Below, piece by piece: positions 12,046-32,743 of a stretch of DNA of 64,000 nt. The DNA is taken from the sequence record MK327941.1; one strand, 5' to 3'. The notes below the pieces were generated by a model that had not been told where the DNA came from, searched no databases, and was given only the letters and a program-made list of their open reading frames with translations. The translations under genes were made by a program, and so were the position numbers. Source of the DNA: Escherichia phage vB_EcoM_G37-3. Each line of letters opens with the position of its first letter. The first letter of the stretch is position 1.

Positions 12046-12087
12046 TTTGATTCTCCTTAAGAAAGTGTGTTTCGTTTTGATGTGTGT

Positions 12088-26020: not shown

Positions 26021-26052
26021 TTTGATACTCCTTAGTAGTTCGTGTTTCGTTT

Positions 26053-26081
26053 CGATGGGTGTATTATGCTATACACCCTCT
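26053..26081 (-). promoter_or_regulatory. Early sigma70-type promoter (PeSL-like cassette)
   Basis: Minus strand TTGACA, 17-nt spacer, CATAAT, conserved leader ACCCATCGAAACGAAACACGAAC. Confidence 0.5.
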
Positions 26082-26099
26082 CGCGTGTCAACAACTTTT

Positions 26100-26288
26100 T
26101 TAGTCTTTTTTCATAATTTCTAGAGCAGTTTCTACAGCACCTTTCCAACCTTCCCACATAATGGACATAGTAAGGAAGTTAAAGCACCCGCAGGAATCAA
26201 CCTTTTTAGAGATAAACCATTCTACAAACGCTTCGCTCATACCATGCTCTTTAGCGGATTCGCGTAATTGTTCAATTTGGTCTTCCAT
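26100..26288 (-). CDS. Hypothetical protein (62 aa)
   Basis: ORF in gene chain. Confidence 0.45.
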   Translation of the reverse strand: MEDQIEQLRESAKEHGMSEAFVEWFISKKVDSCGCFNFLTMSIMWEGWKGAVETALEIMKKD

Positions 26289-26994: not shown

Positions 26995-27040
26995 AATTTG
27001 ATTCTCCGTTTAAGAAAGTGTGTTTCGTTTCGATGGGTGT

Positions 27041-27069
27041 ATTATGCTATAGGCGTGATCTGGTGTCAA
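27041..27069 (-). promoter_or_regulatory. Early sigma70-type promoter (PeSL-like cassette)
   Basis: Minus strand TTGACA, 17-nt spacer, CATAAT, conserved leader. Confidence 0.5.
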
Positions 27070-27094
27070 CAACTTTTTTAAAAAATTTTAGGCA

Positions 27095-27271: not shown

Positions 27272-27490
27272 TTATTTATATCGCTTTCTCTCGCGACGTT
27301 TTTGATCTTCTTCCTTGATAGAGTTAAACGCATCAAAAAGACACATGACACTAATAATAAACATAACCGTATTTTCTACGATATCCCACGGCTTCGCATC
27401 GGTACAGATTCCCCAAACTGTAAGAAATGCAAATAGTGCAGAAGAGATCACAAGCATGATACTTGCTAAGATATAAAAAGTCATTTTCAT
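27272..27490 (-). CDS. Small membrane protein
   Basis: Hydrophobic ORF with basic C-terminus KEEDQKRRERKRYK. Confidence 0.4.
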   Translation of the reverse strand: MKMTFYILASIMLVISSALFAFLTVWGICTDAKPWDIVENTVMFIISVMCLFDAFNSIKEEDQKRRERKRYK

Positions 27491-27681
27491 GGTTTTACCT
27501 CAATTCTTCGATATTCATCACACATCCACGCAGTAAGCAAGAATCCCAACACATAAGCAACAAAATACGTTAATGCTTCTTCTGGTTTCGTGCTATGTAT
27601 CATCAGTAAACCAGCGAGAACGGTCTTAACAATTGCATTTAAAATAATTAACCACGCAAATAATTTCATCGTTTGCCCCAT
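27487..27681 (-). CDS. Small membrane protein
   Basis: Hydrophobic 64-aa ORF. Confidence 0.4.
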   Translation of the reverse strand: MGQTMKLFAWLIILNAIVKTVLAGLLMIHSTKPEEALTYFVAYVLGFLLTAWMCDEYRRIEVKP

Positions 27682-27905
27682 TTCGGTCGAGTCTTTTCAA
27701 ACTTATACATTCCGTAACAATCTCGAATCATCCACGTAACAAGAGCACCAGTCAACACAGACAATACACAGAAGAAGTAAAACGGTCCGGTTGCATTATC
27801 AACATGAGCAAGCCAGGTAAAGAAAACACATGCAAGGAATGTAAAGAACATCATAAAACACAAGAAAGCAAAATATTTTATGCTACTCATAGCGCCACCA
27901 TACAA
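27666..27905 (-). CDS. Small membrane protein
   Basis: Hydrophobic 79-aa ORF. Confidence 0.4.
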   Translation of the reverse strand: MYGGAMSSIKYFAFLCFMMFFTFLACVFFTWLAHVDNATGPFYFFCVLSVLTGALVTWMIRDCYGMYKFEKTRPKWGKR

Positions 27906-27993: not shown

Positions 27994-28236
27994 TCATAGA
28001 TCACAGAGCCATCTTAAAGCACCACATAAAGCGATCAAAAGACTAGGTATAAACGAGACTAAAACAAGACTACAAAAATCATCTAAGGTAACGCCGGAAT
28101 AGCTACCTACTGTAACAACACCGATCATCAGACACAGAAAGAAAACAAATGCAATCAGAAACAAAGTATTGCTAAACAGTTTAGTGATCATTAGACACCC
28201 CACGACGATCAATTTCAAAAACTTTTTTACCATCAA
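27994..28236 (-). CDS. Small membrane protein
   Basis: Hydrophobic 80-aa ORF. Confidence 0.4.
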   Translation of the reverse strand: MMVKKFLKLIVVGCLMITKLFSNTLFLIAFVFFLCLMIGVVTVGSYSGVTLDDFCSLVLVSFIPSLLIALCGALRWLCDL

Positions 28237-28384
28237 CGAAGCATGTCACAACTGCCTCGTTGACTTCCGCAAATTGTTGTGTTACCCACTTAAGGTCAGA
28301 GCGAAACAATGTTCTATTAATAACAAATGTTTTACCTTTCTTATCCATACCCATAAATTTTGCTTTAACCATATCCAATTCCAT
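28181..28384 (-). CDS. Hypothetical protein (67 aa), overlaps downstream ORF in another frame
   Basis: ORF with ATG; 56-nt overlap with 27994-28236. Confidence 0.35.
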   Translation of the reverse strand: MELDMVKAKFMGMDKKGKTFVINRTLFRSDLKWVTQQFAEVNEAVVTCFVDGKKVFEIDRRGVSNDH

Positions 28385-28552
28385 ATTATCACCTTATTTG
28401 CTAATCGCTAAACCCAATCCGAAGAGAGCACCCGATGCTACAGTATACCCGAAAGTTTCAAAGGAAGTAAAGATATCTAAGCCGCCAGCTAACAGAGTTG
28501 CTGTAAACAGAGTACCAGCTACGAACATAAAAGTTTTACCGATAAATTTCAT
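28385..28552 (-). CDS. Small membrane protein (about 55 aa) missed by ORF track
   Basis: ATG 28550-28552 with RBS AAGGAGAATCAAA and PeSL-type promoter; MKFIGKTFMFVAGTLFTATLLAGG... Confidence 0.35.
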
Positions 28553-28583: not shown

Positions 28584-28612
28584 ATCTTACTACCCCCGTT
28601 TCATGTTGTCAA
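28584..28612 (-). promoter_or_regulatory. Early promoter with palindrome around -10 (PeSL-like)
   Basis: Minus strand TTGACA, 17-nt spacer, TAAGAT within GGGGGTAG...ACCCCC inverted repeat. Confidence 0.55.
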
Positions 28613-28618
28613 CTATTT

Positions 28619-28991
28619 TTAAGAATATTTTACTTCGTCTACAATATCTTTCATGACATTGATTTCCATTCCGGTCAGAACACGTTGGAACATGTGCTGC
28701 ACATACGCTTTCAGGTATTCATTTGATGGCTTGCTATCGAAAGTCTTTTTAGTGTAGTAGTCATCACCGAAAGCTACTGTAATTACATTTTCGTCGTCGT
28801 TCCAAGCGATATAAGCAAATTTGCCGTTATCCCAGAAGCGAGCACTAATTGCTACTTTTGTTGAATCGAATCCTACTTCGCTGTGAGATTCAAGAACTAC
28901 TTGCGTGCCAGTTTCTTTATGAATGTAGTAGCGGGATACTAAGTCAAAGTTACGGGTGTAGTGACATTCAAATTTATCTTTAAACATCATC
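28619..28991 (-). CDS. Hypothetical protein (about 124 aa)
   Basis: Probable ATG at MMMFKDKFECHY with RBS AGGAGAATCAAA; track start 29062 lies in promoter. Confidence 0.45.
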
Positions 28992-29030
28992 ATTTTGATT
29001 CTCCTAAGTGTGTTTCGTTTCGATATGTGC

Positions 29031-29059
29031 ATTATGCTATAGTCGTTTATGGTTGTCAA
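29031..29059 (-). promoter_or_regulatory. Early sigma70-type promoter (PeSL-like cassette)
   Basis: Minus strand TTGACA, 17-nt spacer, CATAAT, conserved leader. Confidence 0.5.
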
Positions 29060-29062
29060 CAC

Positions 29063-29100
29063 CTAAAAACAAAAAACCCCGAAAATTTTTCGGGGTATAA
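29063..29100 (-). terminator. Rho-independent terminator downstream of 57B
   Basis: Minus strand hairpin CCCCGAAAAATTTTCGGGG followed by TTTTTTG. Confidence 0.6.
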
Positions 29101-29102
29101 AA

Positions 29103-29573
29103 TTACAGTTTGGTCGTCCACTCCAGGTCTAGATCTTCGACATACTCATGAGATCGGACAATCTCTAAATCGAACTCTAGGTCAGTGCCAAATTTACGCG
29201 CACCAACATCATAAGAAAGCGTGATATGCGGTACATATTCAGGATAATCCCACGTCGCACCTAAAGCAGTGCCGATATCGTGTCTGAATTGCATGTAGTC
29301 GCTTTCAAATGCCAACACAAGTGCATTAGTACCGGATTGAGTTTCAAACACTTTCAGATGACACAGAGAGCCTAAGAACTTCTCCCCTTCTTCTGGGATA
29401 AACGGAACATAGACACGAGAATATAAGATAGTGCTATGCAGTTTATCACGAGGAACGGCATTAGGCAGATCGTAGAACTCCTGCAATTTTTCAATGCGGT
29501 CTAGTGTATCCTCAGTGAATTTAACCGCCGCATATGTACCTTTAACGGATTCTCTAAACGGGGTCATAATCAA
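29103..29573 (-). CDS. 57B: 2H-phosphoesterase-fold protein, T4 57B/Acb1-like (anti-CBASS cyclic-nucleotide phosphodiesterase)
   Basis: Two H-x-T motifs (LHSTILYS, PHITLSY) typical of 2H phosphoesterases; position next to 57A and gene 1 as in T4. Confidence 0.65.
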   Translation of the reverse strand: MIMTPFRESVKGTYAAVKFTEDTLDRIEKLQEFYDLPNAVPRDKLHSTILYSRVYVPFIPEEGEKFLGSLCHLKVFETQSGTNALVLAFESDYMQFRHDIGTALGATWDYPEYVPHITLSYDVGARKFGTDLEFDLEIVRSHEYVEDLDLEWTTKL

Positions 29574-29836
29574 GCCTCCGTGATCAGTTCTACTTCCTCT
29601 TCTGCGTCTTCCGCTGCTTCGTCTTTAGGGAGAAGTGCTTTCACTTCTTCGACAATAGCATCAAGGGAAACAGTCCCGTTTTCGTCTGGCTGAATACCCA
29701 GAATGCGTACCAGTTCCATCAATACACGCTCACGATCTTTCAGTTGGCCTTCTAAGAATGCGGCCTTTTCTTGAGTGTCAAACAGACGTACTTTCAGGAC
29801 ATTAATCATTTGTTCATGCTGATTGGACATATTCAC
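29570..29836 (-). CDS. 57A: Tail fibre assembly chaperone gp57A-like
   Basis: Small acidic coiled-coil protein, syntenic with T4 57A. Confidence 0.6.
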   Translation of the reverse strand: MNMSNQHEQMINVLKVRLFDTQEKAAFLEGQLKDRERVLMELVRILGIQPDENGTVSLDAIVEEVKALLPKDEAAEDAEEEVELITEA

Positions 29837-29862
29837 ATCTCCTACTTGTTGATAACTTTTTA

Positions 29863-30519
29863 TTAAATGTTCGCGAGAATCGCGCTTTCAAATTCTTCTA
29901 ATGTACCATTATTTATGATAATGGTTTCACCGTCAATAGGCAAAATTCCTTTTTCGGTGGAGTGAGTCGATACAATACCAGTATCACGATGAATATGCAA
30001 CACCTTAGCACCCATAGCACGCATGAGAGCAATTTCAATAGGCTGACGCACATCAACCACTACAAAATACCCTTCTTCATTTTTGCGCTTCATAAACTCA
30101 TTCACGAAGAGATTACACCAATAAAGCGGATTGATCAAGTTAACCATTATATCAGTACCGAGAGTGGTTAACATGAGACGAATAGACCAGACGTTATTAT
30201 GTTTTTCGCCGATCTCATTAACGACCTTGTAAATCTCAGCCAGACGATCACAAGTAAAGGAACTACCGCCATACTTCGAATCTAGCATAAGCAGACACTG
30301 AATAAACCACTTATGCGCGGTATAGGTATCAATACCTAGATCGGCTTCTCTGTCACGCCCCAACCCGTCAAAGTCAAGATAAGTCAGACCTAAGTCTGGT
30401 TGACATTCGCACAATATTTCTTTGATCGGTGCTGCCAGTTGATAACTATGTCCATCAATGATTAACGCGGCAGTGTCTTTTCCTACTCGCTTTTTACCAC
30501 AAAGTGCAATCAATTTCAT
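29863..30519 (-). CDS. 1: Deoxynucleoside monophosphate kinase (gene 1)
   Basis: MKLIALCGKKRVGKDT P-loop and overall collinearity with T4 gp1. Confidence 0.85.
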   Translation of the reverse strand: MKLIALCGKKRVGKDTAALIIDGHSYQLAAPIKEILCECQPDLGLTYLDFDGLGRDREADLGIDTYTAHKWFIQCLLMLDSKYGGSSFTCDRLAEIYKVVNEIGEKHNNVWSIRLMLTTLGTDIMVNLINPLYWCNLFVNEFMKRKNEEGYFVVVDVRQPIEIALMRAMGAKVLHIHRDTGIVSTHSTEKGILPIDGETIIINNGTLEEFESAILANI

Positions 30520-30534
30520 TATATAAGCCTCTTA

Positions 30535-31125
30535 TTACTTTCTAAAAGCAGGGTGCATAGCTTTAATACCTTCCACCCTCTGACGATCCGCCGCCTGAAT
30601 TGCTGGGCGAGGAACGATCAGTTGACCATCACGTTCAATGCTCATTGTTTTAAAGGGAAGAATTGCAGTACACACCAGAGATTCATGCATATCATCGGTG
30701 TATGTTAACTCAAGTTCCCCCAATTGTGAACACCAACAACCATAAAAGTTAAAAGTGCACACAATGTTACGTCGTTCGTTGTCCATCATGTGAACTTGAA
30801 CGGCTTCCGGCATTGAATCCTTCCACGCAGTGGAGTTACCGTTATTGTAGTCTACTATAGAAAGCATCCATGTGTAAAGGTTTAGATAGCTTTCCAAATG
30901 CTCATCGACAATAAACCGGACTACCAACGGGTCAAACTCCACATGACTAGACGGATAATCAGCGACCGCCAAACCATATTGTCCAGCAACTTGCTTAGTC
31001 GGTGGAATGGTTATAGCCGGAAGTGTAACACCTTGAGCATTTAAAGTAAAGCCTTTTGTTAGTTGTCCATCTGGAATATTGATCTGCCAGTTGCTGGGGT
31101 TAGCATAGTTAAAGAGATTAGACAT
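30535..31125 (-). CDS. 3: Tail completion / sheath stabiliser protein gp3 (by synteny)
   Basis: ORF between gene 1 and gene 2 homologs; assignment mainly positional. Confidence 0.55.
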   Translation of the reverse strand: MSNLFNYANPSNWQINIPDGQLTKGFTLNAQGVTLPAITIPPTKQVAGQYGLAVADYPSSHVEFDPLVVRFIVDEHLESYLNLYTWMLSIVDYNNGNSTAWKDSMPEAVQVHMMDNERRNIVCTFNFYGCWCSQLGELELTYTDDMHESLVCTAILPFKTMSIERDGQLIVPRPAIQAADRQRVEGIKAMHPAFRK

Positions 31126-31315: not shown

Positions 31316-31570
31316 ATGACAGAAGACATTTTGTTAAAACTCTATGATCGTCTGGATAACGAATTAGCAACATTGCGGGGTGAAGTTCTCTATTTGTCTA
31401 AATGCAATACAGATCTGCTTAAGCAGATTGCAGAAAGGGATGATCAAATAAAATCCCTTTCAGGTGCATTACGTGATCGCGACAAGGCATTAGAGATTTT
31501 ACAGCGTGTTACCAATAAGGAAGAATTAAAAGACTTCTTACATGGTTATGCTCATGCTATCGATCTATAA
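31316..31570 (+). CDS. Hypothetical coiled-coil protein (84 aa), plus-strand gene inside minus-strand block
   Basis: ATG with RBS GAGGA; ends at bidirectional hairpin. Confidence 0.4.
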   Translation: MTEDILLKLYDRLDNELATLRGEVLYLSKCNTDLLKQIAERDDQIKSLSGALRDRDKALEILQRVTNKEELKDFLHGYAHAIDL

Positions 31571-31600: not shown

Positions 31601-32743
31601 TTAACTATTGATCATATCAATGACGTTTTGTAGCTCTGATATGGATAGCGTTTCTGTATATCCATCGGGCATATCTTCTTTACTAACATAGAAACCTTTA
31701 TACTTTTTCTTTATTGCACATTCCATAGAAAGAGCATCATCACCGTTATCGTATTTTTTATAAAATGTCAACTCATGACGAAATATAGATTTTGAAGATT
31801 GGTTTTGTATTCTTTTTATTAATCTGTTGTTGGTTATACCAAATTTTATAGCAACCGCAACATCTTCTTTGTATAAAGTTTGTACATAAATGTATGCAGG
31901 TTTATTCCTCTTAAATCCATGATTGCTACACATAGGGCAACCGCTATTTTTTGATACGTAGTCTCCTAAGTTTGGCGTAAATTCATGTCCGCTACTACAA
32001 CGCATTACCAATTTTGTTTTTAGCATTCCTCTATACTCACCGCCAACAAAATCAACAAATGTATCACCTTTATCAATCGCCTTATCTGTTATTTCCTTTA
32101 CTACTTGCTCAGTTGACTTCTTGTTTTTACCTGAACATAGTTTACATCTAGATCCATTAACTAAAAACGAGTGACCGGATGCAGTATATTCATGTCCATT
32201 AGGGCATTTAACTAAGATATTTCTTTCATAAAAATCTTTATAATCAGACACATAGTCAATGACTTCGTGGTCTTTTTGGTTATTCCTCATCTCTGTTAGC
32301 AACTCTTCGCTATTCCAGCGTTTACCCTTAACGCAGAGACAACCATGACCTTGATAAAGATATATAAATTTCTTAGTAAAGTTTTTGTTGCAATCAGGAC
32401 AATGCATTAGTAATTCTGTCATTTGACCTGTATATCCTTTAGGAATATCGATCAATGTGTATTTTCCGCATATTGTCTTTAATGCATCATCTATTCTTTC
32501 TTTGGTCCAGCGTAAGCGACCAGTGCATTCATGACATTTTACACCCAGTCTAAGAGTATCTAAACTAAATATAGTTGACGTATGTCCTTTATCACATTTT
32601 AACTTAAATCTAGTATCCTTTGCGTTGGTGTATTCTCCGACTAGACCATACCATTCATAACCACATGGGATATGTTCTTTTACCTTCTCTAGATATACAC
32701 CGAACGGTCTAGGAACTGAATTAGGTTTTCTTTCTTTAGTCAT
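31601..32743 (-). CDS. Multi zinc-ribbon protein with C-terminal GIY-YIG-like (T5orf172-type) domain; putative homing-endonuclease-like selfish gene
   Basis: At least six C-x2-C ... GH pairs; C-terminal AYIYVQ...IKFGITNN...GYTETLSIS resembles the T5orf172 motif pattern; inserted between gene 3 and gene 2. Confidence 0.55.
   Translation of the reverse strand: MTKERKPNSVPRPFGVYLEKVKEHIPCGYEWYGLVGEYTNAKDTRFKLKCDKGHTSTIFSLDTLRLGVKCHECTGRLRWTKERIDDALKTICGKYTLIDIPKGYTGQMTELLMHCPDCNKNFTKKFIYLYQGHGCLCVKGKRWNSEELLTEMRNNQKDHEVIDYVSDYKDFYERNILVKCPNGHEYTASGHSFLVNGSRCKLCSGKNKKSTEQVVKEITDKAIDKGDTFVDFVGGEYRGMLKTKLVMRCSSGHEFTPNLGDYVSKNSGCPMCSNHGFKRNKPAYIYVQTLYKEDVAVAIKFGITNNRLIKRIQNQSSKSIFRHELTFYKKYDNGDDALSMECAIKKKYKGFYVSKEDMPDGYTETLSISELQNVIDMINS

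What the first reader, a model, noticed from the sequence alone, without database searches (positions are those of the whole stretch)
29103..29573. 57B/Acb1-like 2H phosphoesterase (anti-CBASS) is conserved next to 57A
The ORF upstream of 57A has two H-x-T motifs (LHSTILYS, PHITLSY) characteristic of the 2H phosphoesterase fold. It occupies the position of T4 gene 57B, which I recall has been characterised as Acb1, a nuclease degrading cyclic oligonucleotide immune signals. It has its own terminator (29063-29100) and a PeSL-like promoter region nearby.
Basis: partly seen in the sequence, partly recalled or inferred. Interest (0 to 1): 0.45.

Follow-up and report, generated by a model that had tools for sequence, protein, structure and literature searches.

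The report
Known Acb1 anti-CBASS gene, RB49-like phage

Summary
The minus-strand ORF 29567..29103 encodes 154 aa from an ATG, not from the TTG at 29573. It matches the Pfam Acb1 model over its full length (E 1.5e-51). It matches the crystallised phage FBB1 Acb1 (PDB 7T26, E 1.8e-43) and is 47% identical to T4 gp57B/Acb1 (E 3e-47). Both catalytic H-x-T motifs are present, and so are the equivalents of the T4 base-contacting residues. The predicted structure superposes on 7T26 at 0.9 Å. The gene order 3, 1, 57A, 57B is the same as in T4. The window is a Krischvirus, 99.5% identical to phage AV108 over 2 kb. The protein is identical in JSE and GEC-3S despite 10 nucleotide changes, all synonymous. 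It is 153/154 identical in vB_EcoM_G2494, an RB49-like phage that was in the lysate screen of the paper that discovered Acb1. The "terminator" and the "PeSL-like promoter" are two halves of one PeSL cassette at 29096..29031. That cassette ends the acb1 transcript and starts transcription of the next gene. It does not drive acb1. Enzyme activity was not tested here. The finding is already known and of low interest.

The parts
29103..29567 (-). acb1 (gene 57B homologue) CDS, 154 aa from the ATG at 29567 to the TAA stop at 29105..29103
   Evidence: Pfam Acb1 E 1.5e-51 over residues 9-152. PDB 7T26 E 1.8e-43. T4 57B 47% identity. The same 465-nt CDS is annotated in JSE, GEC-3S and G2494.
29430..29438 (-). 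First catalytic H-x-T motif, H44-S45-T46
   Evidence: H44 and T46 are invariant in alignments of 32 and 56 sequences. They align with T4 H44/T46, which form part of the active-site tetrad.
29220..29228 (-). Second catalytic H-x-T motif, H114-I115-T116 (T4 H113/T115)
   Evidence: H114 and T116 are invariant. The alignment with T4 is, and their role in acid-base catalysis is described.
29575..29579 (-). GGAGG Shine-Dalgarno sequence for acb1, inside the last codons of 57A and 7 nt upstream of the ATG
   Evidence: Read directly from the sequence.
29570..29830 (-). Gene 57A (tail-fibre assembly chaperone). Its TGA stop at 29572..29570 lies 2 nt before the acb1 ATG.
   Evidence: PHROG 1002 'tail fiber chaperone' E 2.1e-26 and Pfam GP57 at 27.5 bits. 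JSE annotation.
29066..29096 (-). Intrinsic-terminator-like hairpin (ACCCCGAAA/AAT/TTTCGGGGT) plus T-run. This is the stem-loop half of a PeSL cassette and ends the 3, 1, 57A, acb1 transcription unit.
   Evidence: Terminator scan. RNA fold -14.3 kcal/mol, z -2.7. Annotated as a terminator in GEC-3S and G2494. Conserved in JSE and GEC-3S, with the only difference in the loop.
29031..29059 (-). Early sigma-70-type promoter (TTGACA, 17 nt, CATAAT). This is the promoter half of the PeSL cassette and drives the downstream ORFan, not acb1.
   Evidence: Promoter scan, 11 of 12 matches. It belongs to a repeated 61-nt cassette family with copies at 26042, 27020 and 29010. Annotated as a promoter with -35 and -10 signals in GEC-3S. 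PeSL definition from PMC2839356.
28619..28993 (-). Downstream ORFan (124 aa, PHROG 15253, function unknown). First gene of the PeSL-rich variable region that also contains dmd.
   Evidence: PHROG E 2.7e-87, with no Pfam hit above the cut-off. JSE annotation.
29863..30519 (-). Gene 1, dNMP kinase. Synteny anchor.
   Evidence: Pfam DNMK E 5.3e-68.
30535..31125 (-). Gene 3, tail completion / sheath stabiliser. Synteny anchor.
   Evidence: PHROG 45 'tail tube' E 4.9e-43 and Pfam gp19 family. Annotated as gene 3 in JSE.

Best explanation
The ORF 29567..29103 (minus strand) is the Krischvirus (RB49/JSE/phi1 group) orthologue of T4 gene 57B, which is acb1.

Its product is a ~17.5 kDa single-domain 2H phosphoesterase. 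By homology it should bind 3'-5'-linked cyclic di- and trinucleotides that contain at least one adenosine, such as 3'3'-cGAMP, cUA, cAAA and cAAG. It should stack the bases on Y12, F74, Y108 and W150, read adenine N6 with E144, and close a C-terminal lid over the ligand.

The H44/T46/H114/T116 tetrad should then catalyse metal-independent attack of the 2'-OH on the 3'-5' phosphodiester. This proceeds through a 2',3'-cyclic phosphate intermediate and yields linear products with a 3' phosphate. Destroying the second messenger keeps CBASS effectors, and possibly cA3-dependent type III CRISPR effectors, inactive, so the phage can finish its cycle.

The gene is the last cistron of the conserved 3, 1, 57A, acb1 block. 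It is probably translationally coupled to 57A, because the 57A stop and the acb1 start are 2 nt apart and the SD lies inside 57A. Its transcript ends at the hairpin of a PeSL cassette, whose promoter restarts early transcription into the variable region of ORFans and dmd.

Shown here: family membership, the catalytic and ligand-contact residues, the predicted fold, synteny, purifying selection, and the terminator/promoter sequence anatomy. Inferred: enzymatic activity, substrate range, anti-CBASS phenotype and timing of expression.
For: **Family membership**
- Pfam PF23474 Acb1: 174.4 bits (cut-off 27), E 1.5e-51, profile positions 1-143 of 144.
- phmmer against PDB finds only FBB1 Acb1 (7T26/7T27), E 1.8e-43, query residues 10-153.
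- BLASTP against T4 NP_049750 (57B): 47% identity, E 3e-47, full length.
- All 64 database homologues carry PF23474.

**Functional residues**
- G10, Y12, H44, T46, S50, H114, T116, L117, Y119 and E141 are invariant in 56 diverse homologues. E144 is conserved in at least 90% of them.
- Mapped on T4 numbering: Y12=Y12, H44=H44, T46=T46, W74->F74 (FBB1 also has F here), F107->Y108, H113=H114, T115=T116, E141=E144, W147=W150.

**Structure**
- AlphaFold2 model, mean pLDDT 91.0, pTM 0.84.
- Foldseek best hit 7T26: rmsd 0.9 Å over 138 columns, target-normalised TM 0.97. LigT and CPDase structures reach only TM about 0.5-0.6.

**Genomic context and conservation**
- Gene order 3, 1, 57A, 57B is identical to T4.
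- The window is a Krischvirus. 58 phage records match the 2-kb region at 95% identity or more, with AV108 best at 99.5%.
- The 10 nucleotide differences from JSE and the 10 from GEC-3S are all synonymous, 9 of them at third codon positions.

**Experimental background**
- T4 Acb1 function, mechanism, the H44A/H113A loss of function and the >300-fold defect of T4 Δacb1 on CBASS are published, and 9 further homologues were all active (PMC9117128).
- The RB49-like phage vB_EcoM_G2494, whose protein is 153/154 identical, was one of the 57 phages in that paper's lysate screen. The paper states that T4-related phages degrade CBASS signals.
Against: - No biochemical or genetic test of this particular protein was found. 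No paper in the library holds both 'Acb1' and 'RB49' or 'Krischvirus'.
- The per-phage result for G2494 is in a figure that is not held, so I cannot say it was positive.
- Two base-stacking positions differ conservatively from T4 (W74F, F107Y), so the substrate preference could be shifted.
- No exact T4-type late promoter (TATAAATA) lies upstream of genes 3, 1, 57A or acb1, so the timing and source of transcription are unresolved.
Confidence: 0.93

Rival explanations
1. It is a LigT-type 2'-5' RNA ligase or 2',3'-cyclic nucleotide phosphodiesterase that acts on RNA ends, for example in tRNA repair. This is what the 'RNA ligase' label in many phage records and in PHROG 755 implies.
For: PHROG 755 is labelled 'RNA ligase'. 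Many RefSeq phage records call the orthologue 'RNA ligase'. There are weak Pfam hits to 2_5_RNA_ligase2 and LigT_PEase. LigT structures appear among the distant Foldseek hits.
Against: The LigT-family Pfam scores are below their cut-offs (19.4 against 27; 14.1 against 23.3), while Acb1 scores 174. LigT structures match at only 10-12% identity, with TM about 0.5 and rmsd 6-8 Å, against 0.9 Å for Acb1. T4 gp57B itself carries the 'RNA ligase' label and was shown experimentally to be a cyclic-oligonucleotide nuclease. The label is inherited from the superfamily and is not evidence of ligase activity.
Confidence: 0.02
2. It is an Acb1-family enzyme whose substrate range has diverged from T4 Acb1. 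It might prefer trinucleotides or some other signal, or be tuned to avoid decoy-nucleotide guard systems such as Panoptes. It would then be a family member that does not work like T4 Acb1 in detail.
For: It is only 47% identical to T4 Acb1. Two base-stacking residues differ, W74F and F107Y. Recent work shows selection on acb1 from Panoptes systems that sense cA3 depletion.
Against: The substitutions are aromatic for aromatic, and F at position 74 also occurs in FBB1 Acb1, which binds and cleaves 3'3'-cGAMP. The adenine-reading Glu and the lid Trp are retained. All 9 additional homologues tested by Hobbs et al. cleaved both 3'3'-cGAMP and cAAA.
Confidence: 0.05

Closest known systems
T4 gp57B = Acb1 (NP_049750.1), anti-CBASS 2H phosphoesterase (Hobbs et al., Nature 2022, PMC9117128)
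   Same: Similar length (154 against 152 aa) and 47% identity over the full length. Identical HxT/HxT tetrad, Y12, adenine-reading Glu and lid Trp. Same genomic slot, immediately after 57A in the 3, 1, 57A, 57B block. In both phages the gene is followed by an early promoter combined with a stem-loop.
   Different: W74->F and F107->Y at two stacking positions, plus one- and two-residue indels. The downstream neighbour in T4 is ipI followed by the tRNA cluster. Here it is a PeSL cassette, an ORFan, a 52-aa ORF and dmd, and the window has no tRNA genes.
Erwinia phage FBB1 Acb1 (PDB 7T26 apo, 7T27 with 3'3'-cGAMP product)
   Same: 52% identity. The predicted model superposes at 0.9 Å rmsd with TM 0.97. 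F occupies the position equivalent to T4 W74 in both.
   Different: Different phage genus and host. The structure here is only predicted, and the lid residues 151-154 have low confidence.
Krischvirus gp57B orthologues (JSE YP_002922201, GEC-3S CEO90730, vB_EcoM_G2494 QBO63089, Skers, SAP)
   Same: 99-100% identical in protein, with the same flanks, the same terminator and the same promoter.
   Different: Essentially nothing. These records label the protein 'hypothetical protein', 'gp57B conserved hypothetical protein' or 'RNA ligase' rather than Acb1.
LigT / 2'-5' RNA ligase / CPDase branch of the 2H phosphoesterase superfamily
   Same: Same superfamily fold and the same two H-x-T/S motifs.
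   Different: Pfam scores are below the cut-offs, identity is 10-17% and TM about 0.5-0.6. These enzymes are larger (about 170-185 aa) and lack the Acb1 lid and stacking residues.
PeSL (promoter-early stem-loop) regulatory cassettes of RB49/phi1 (Arbiol et al. 2010, PMC2839356)
   Same: The 29096..29031 element has a stem-loop in the AT/T-rich stretch upstream of the -35 box, a strong sigma-70-like promoter, then an SD and ATG. Its promoter and leader half is repeated at 26042, 27020 and 29010.
   Different: It sits at the edge of a conserved core block rather than between two ORFans. Its promoter and terminator activity was not tested here.

Membership tests
Acb1 (Pfam PF23474, anti-CBASS protein 1) | Full-length match to the family profile above the curated threshold | tested here: met
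   174.4 bits against a cut-off of 27, E 1.5e-51, profile positions 1-143 of 144.
Acb1 (Pfam PF23474, anti-CBASS protein 1) | Active-site HxT/HxT tetrad (T4 H44, T46, H113, T115) | tested here: met
   H44, T46, H114 and T116 are present and aligned with the T4 residues. They are invariant in 56 homologues. They are the only H-x-[ST] triplets in the protein.
Acb1 (Pfam PF23474, anti-CBASS protein 1) | Nucleobase-stacking aromatics (T4 Y12, W74, F107, W147) and adenine-specific Glu (T4 E141) | tested here: met
   Y12, F74, Y108, W150 and E144 occupy these positions. All stacking positions are aromatic, F74 matches FBB1, and the Glu is conserved in at least 90% of the family.
Acb1 (Pfam PF23474, anti-CBASS protein 1) | Compact 2H phosphoesterase fold of about 150 aa with a C-terminal lid | tested here: met
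   AF2 model with pLDDT 91. Foldseek against 7T26 gives rmsd 0.9 Å and TM 0.97 normalised to the target. This rests on a predicted structure, not a solved one.
Acb1 (Pfam PF23474, anti-CBASS protein 1) | Position in T4-like genomes directly after 57A (order 3, 1, 57A, 57B) | tested here: met
   Searches compared with the T4 annotation.
Acb1 (Pfam PF23474, anti-CBASS protein 1) | [quoted passage not shown] | not testable with these tools
   Shown only for T4 Acb1, FBB1 Acb1 and 9 other homologues. A phage with a 153/154-identical protein was in the lysate screen, but its individual result is not readable.
Acb1 (Pfam PF23474, anti-CBASS protein 1) | Protects the phage from CBASS in vivo | not testable with these tools
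   Shown for T4 Δacb1, with a >300-fold defect. No Krischvirus data were found.
LigT / 2'-5' RNA ligase (PF02834, PF13563) | Match to the family profile above the curated threshold | tested here: not met
   14.1 bits against 23.3 and 19.4 bits against 27. Structural TM is about 0.5.
PeSL regulatory cassette (RB49/phi1) | Strong sigma-70-like promoter combined with a stable stem-loop in an intergenic AT-rich region, followed by SD and ATG, and repeated in the genome | tested here: met
   Hairpin at 29096..29076 and promoter at 29059..29031. Repeated cassette family D1 has 3 copies, and its leader motif has 4 matches against 0.1 expected. Definition.
PeSL regulatory cassette (RB49/phi1) | Demonstrated terminator and promoter activity, and recombination between copies | not testable with these tools
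   Shown for other PeSLs in PMC2839356, not for this copy.

The most novel reading that the evidence does not exclude
The PeSL cassette directly 3' of acb1 may mark the start of a PeSL-shuffled anti-defence island. On this reading the uncharacterised ORFans between acb1 and dmd (PHROG 15253 at 28993..28619 and PHROG 16462 at 28552..28394), and perhaps those beyond dmd, would be new counter-defence genes. This would mirror the acb1-ipI adjacency in T4. Alternatively, the Krischvirus Acb1 may have a shifted substrate range that changes how it interacts with CBASS and with Panoptes guard systems.
Probability: 0.12. Interest if true: 0.4.

Novelty: already known. Interest (0 to 1): 0.08.

Why it matters
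It matters little beyond correct annotation. Most Krischvirus records call this gene 'hypothetical protein' or, misleadingly, 'RNA ligase'. It should be named acb1 (anti-CBASS protein 1, cyclic-oligonucleotide phosphodiesterase).

In practice, RB49-like phages, which include candidates for phage therapy such as phi1 and JSE, are predicted to resist many CBASS systems. By the same token they may be sensed by cA3-decoy guard systems such as type II Panoptes, which restrict Acb1-expressing T-even phages.

The neighbourhood of acb1, a PeSL cassette, ORFans and dmd is a reasonable place to look for new anti-defence genes.

Tried and rejected
- **NCBIfam scan of the protein:** no family. These models cover bacterial and archaeal annotation and do not include Acb1.
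- **Literature on a Krischvirus Acb1:** searches for 'Acb1' with 'Krischvirus', 'Acb1' with 'RB49', and 'Bas46' with 'Krischvirus' found nothing.
- **The phage BCSR5 phosphodiesterase** (PDB 9q2y, third-best structural hit, 17% identity): no paper found.
- **Per-phage screen result for vB_EcoM_G2494 in Hobbs et al.:** only the phage list is held. The result is in a figure.
- **A T4-type late promoter (TATAAATA) upstream of genes 3, 1, 57A or acb1:** none between 27281 and 34121. The window-wide count of 6 is no more than chance. The nearest sequence upstream of gene 3 is AATAAATA. Expression timing is therefore left as an inference.
- **Structure prediction with T4 57B in the alignment:** It was repeated without T4.
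- **Rfam and tRNA scans of the whole window:** nothing.
- **The TTG at 29573 as the start codon:** rejected. It overlaps the 57A stop, has no suitably spaced SD, and all annotated orthologues start at the ATG.

Full report
**1. What is in the sequence**

The ORF listing reports a minus-strand ORF at 29103..29573, 156 aa from a TTG. Two codons further in there is an ATG at 29567. A GGAGG sequence lies at 29579..29575, 7 nt upstream of that ATG. The TGA stop of the preceding ORF is at 29572..29570, so stop and start are 2 nt apart.

The orthologous CDS in phages JSE, GEC-3S and vB_EcoM_G2494 is annotated as 465 nt, which corresponds to the ATG start and 154 aa.

LHSTILYS covers residues 43-50 (29441..29418) and PHITLSY covers residues 113-119 (29231..29211). 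They contain the only two H-x-[ST] triplets in the protein.

**2. Source of the window**

Megablast of 28600-30600 against the phage collection finds 58 records. All cover the whole query at 95% identity or more. They are Krischvirus phages and close relatives: RB49, JSE, GEC-3S, AV108 and others. The best is AV108 at 99.5%.

**3. Family assignment**

| Test | Result |
|---|---|
| Pfam PF23474 'Anti-CBASS protein Acb1' | 174.4 bits (cut-off 27), E 1.5e-51, profile 1-143 of 144 |
| Pfam LigT-type families | below their cut-offs |
| PHROG 755, labelled 'RNA ligase' | E 9.8e-55 |
| phmmer against all PDB chains | one sequence only, FBB1 Acb1 (7T26/7T27), E 1.8e-43 over residues 10-153 |
| BLASTP against T4 57B (NP_049750) | 47% identity, 64% positives, E 3e-47, full length |
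| tblastn against the phage collection | 1475 records across T4-like phages of many hosts |
| Search of 5.8 billion proteins | 64 homologues, all with PF23474 |

**4. Functional residues**

Hobbs et al. (PMC9117128) describe Acb1 as a 2H phosphoesterase. It has an H44/T46/H113/T115 tetrad, base-stacking residues Y12, W74, F107 and W147, an adenine-N6 contact from E141, and a C-terminal lid.

| T4 Acb1 | This protein | Note |
|---|---|---|
| Y12 | Y12 | same |
| H44, T46 | H44, T46 | same |
| W74 | F74 | the crystallised FBB1 enzyme also has F here |
| F107 | Y108 | aromatic retained |
| H113, T115 | H114, T116 | same |
| E141 | E144 | same |
| W147 | W150 | same |

The mapping comes from the pairwise alignment.

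In alignments of 32 and 56 diverse homologues, G10, Y12, H44, T46, S50, H114, T116, L117, Y119 and E141 are invariant. E144 is conserved in at least 90% of sequences.

**5. Structure**

An AlphaFold2 model built from the 56-sequence alignment has mean pLDDT 91.0 and pTM 0.84. Only the termini are uncertain.

Foldseek against the PDB ranks 7T26 first, with rmsd 0.9 Å over 138 columns, TM 0.97 normalised to the target and 52% identity. 7T27 is second. A Burkholderia phage phosphodiesterase is a distant third at 17% identity. LigT and CPDase structures follow at TM about 0.5-0.6.

**6. Synteny and selection**

On the minus strand the order is:
- gene 3 at 31125..30535 (tail completion);
- gene 1 at 30519..29863 (dNMP kinase, Pfam E 5.3e-68);
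- 57A at 29830..29570 (tail-fibre chaperone);
- acb1 at 29567..29103.

This is exactly the T4 order 3, 1, 57A, 57B.

Against JSE and against GEC-3S the acb1 CDS differs at 10 of 465 nucleotides. Nine are at third codon positions and one at a first position. None changes an amino acid. That is the pattern expected for a gene under purifying selection.

**7. The terminator and the 'PeSL-like promoter'**

A hairpin lies immediately after the TAA stop at 29096..29076 (ACCCCGAAA-AAT-TTTCGGGGT; 9 pairs, 5 of them G-C) and is followed by TTTTTTGTTTT. As RNA it folds at -14.3 kcal/mol, z = -2.7, and 1 of 200 shuffles folds as well. GEC-3S and G2494 annotate a terminator at the same place.

Sixteen nucleotides further on there is a TTGACA, 17 nt, CATAAT promoter at 29059..29031 (11 of 12 matches). 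It is annotated with -35 and -10 signals in GEC-3S.

The promoter and its leader belong to a repeated 61-nt cassette with copies at 26042, 27020 and 29010. The leader motif GTGTTTCGTTTCGAT occurs 4 times in the window against 0.1 expected.

This combination of stem-loop, strong sigma-70-like promoter, SD and ATG is what Arbiol et al. defined as a PeSL in RB49 and phi1.

The cassette's hairpin ends the acb1 transcript. Its promoter serves the next gene (28993..28619, PHROG 15253, function unknown), not acb1.

T4 has a comparable arrangement after 57B: an early-promoter-like sequence with an embedded stem-loop in front of ipI.

**8. How it most likely works**

By homology, the protein binds adenosine-containing 3'-5' cyclic di- and trinucleotides and closes its lid over them. 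The two His/Thr pairs then cleave the substrate through a 2',3'-cyclic phosphate intermediate, without metal. This removes the CBASS second messenger before effectors fire.

T4 Acb1 activity appears about 15 minutes into infection. Here the 2-nt gap from 57A, the SD inside 57A and the absence of any terminator between the two genes suggest co-transcription and translational coupling with 57A.

I found no exact TATAAATA late promoter upstream of the block. Timing of expression therefore remains an inference.

**9. Experimental proximity**

The supplementary phage list of Hobbs et al. includes 'vB_EcoM-G2494 (Escherichia phage RB49)' among the 57 phages screened. The G2494 orthologue is 153/154 identical to the window protein, differing only at D129N.

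The paper states that T4-related phages degrade CBASS signals. The per-phage result is in a figure that I could not read. No paper in the library mentions Acb1 together with RB49 or Krischvirus.

**10. Rival explanations**

The 'RNA ligase' label in PHROG 755 and in many RefSeq records is inherited from the 2H superfamily name. T4 57B carries the same label and is experimentally a cyclic-oligonucleotide nuclease. LigT profiles and structures fit far worse than Acb1.

A shifted substrate range cannot be excluded at 47% identity. However, the differences at contact positions are conservative, and all 9 extra homologues tested in the original paper cleaved both cGAMP and cAAA.

**11. Verdict**

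The gene belongs to a characterised family that already has a Pfam entry. It sits in the expected place, in a phage group whose genomes are public, and a near-identical representative was in the discovery screen.

Novelty: already known. Interest: low. The useful outputs are a corrected start codon, the correct reading of the terminator and promoter as a single PeSL that bounds the conserved block, and a note that the common 'RNA ligase' annotation is misleading.

Noticed in passing
window 28181-28384 (-): A dmd homologue (Discriminator of mRNA degradation, the antitoxin against RnlA/LsoA; Pfam Dmd E 8.4e-15, PHROG 2102 E 1e-29) lies three genes downstream of acb1. Two anti-defence genes therefore sit within about 1.4 kb. 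In T4, as far as I recall, dmd is elsewhere in the genome, near rIIB.
   Followed up: partly
window 28619-28993 (-), 28394-28552 (-), 27994-28191 (-), 27666-27890 (-), 27487-27681 (-): A run of small ORFans (PHROGs 15253, 16462, 17225, 15290, 15717; all of unknown function and without significant Pfam hits) follows acb1 in a PeSL-rich stretch. Several look hydrophobic or membrane-like by eye. They are candidate accessory or anti-defence genes.
   Followed up: partly
window 26042-26102, 27020-27080, 29010-29070 (also 12067-12081): A repeated promoter-plus-leader cassette of about 61 nt (on the minus strand: TTGACA, 17 nt, TATAAT-like, then CGAAACGAAACAC), 69-87% identical between copies. This matches the PeSL elements proposed to mediate modular shuffling in RB49 and phi1.
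   Followed up: partly
window 31601-32743 (-): A 380-aa endonuclease-like gene (PHROG 681 'endonuclease' E 4e-81; Pfam CapR homology domain, treble-clef zinc finger, weak T5orf172) is inserted between gene 3 and gene 2, which are adjacent in T4. It is probably a homing-endonuclease-type mobile gene. A small plus-strand ORF (31316-31570, PHROG 17832) lies next to it.
   Followed up: no
whole window 1-64000: There are no tRNA genes and no Rfam matches at gathering threshold, although T4 has its 8-tRNA cluster about 1.5 kb downstream of 57B. Exact TATAAATA late-promoter motifs occur 6 times, no more than chance (6.6 expected).
   Followed up: yes
window 29908-29936 (-): A sigma-70-like promoter match (TTGACG, 17 nt, AATAAT; 10 of 12) lies inside the 3' end of gene 1, about 70 nt upstream of 57A. 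It could give 57A and acb1 transcription independent of genes 3 and 1. This is a consensus match only.
   Followed up: no
PDB 9q2y/9q2g (external): A 'phosphodiesterase from Burkholderia phage BCSR5' with open and closed lid conformations is the next-closest solved structure after FBB1 Acb1 (TM about 0.7, 17% identity). It is probably a distant Acb1-like enzyme. No paper was found in the library.
   Followed up: partly
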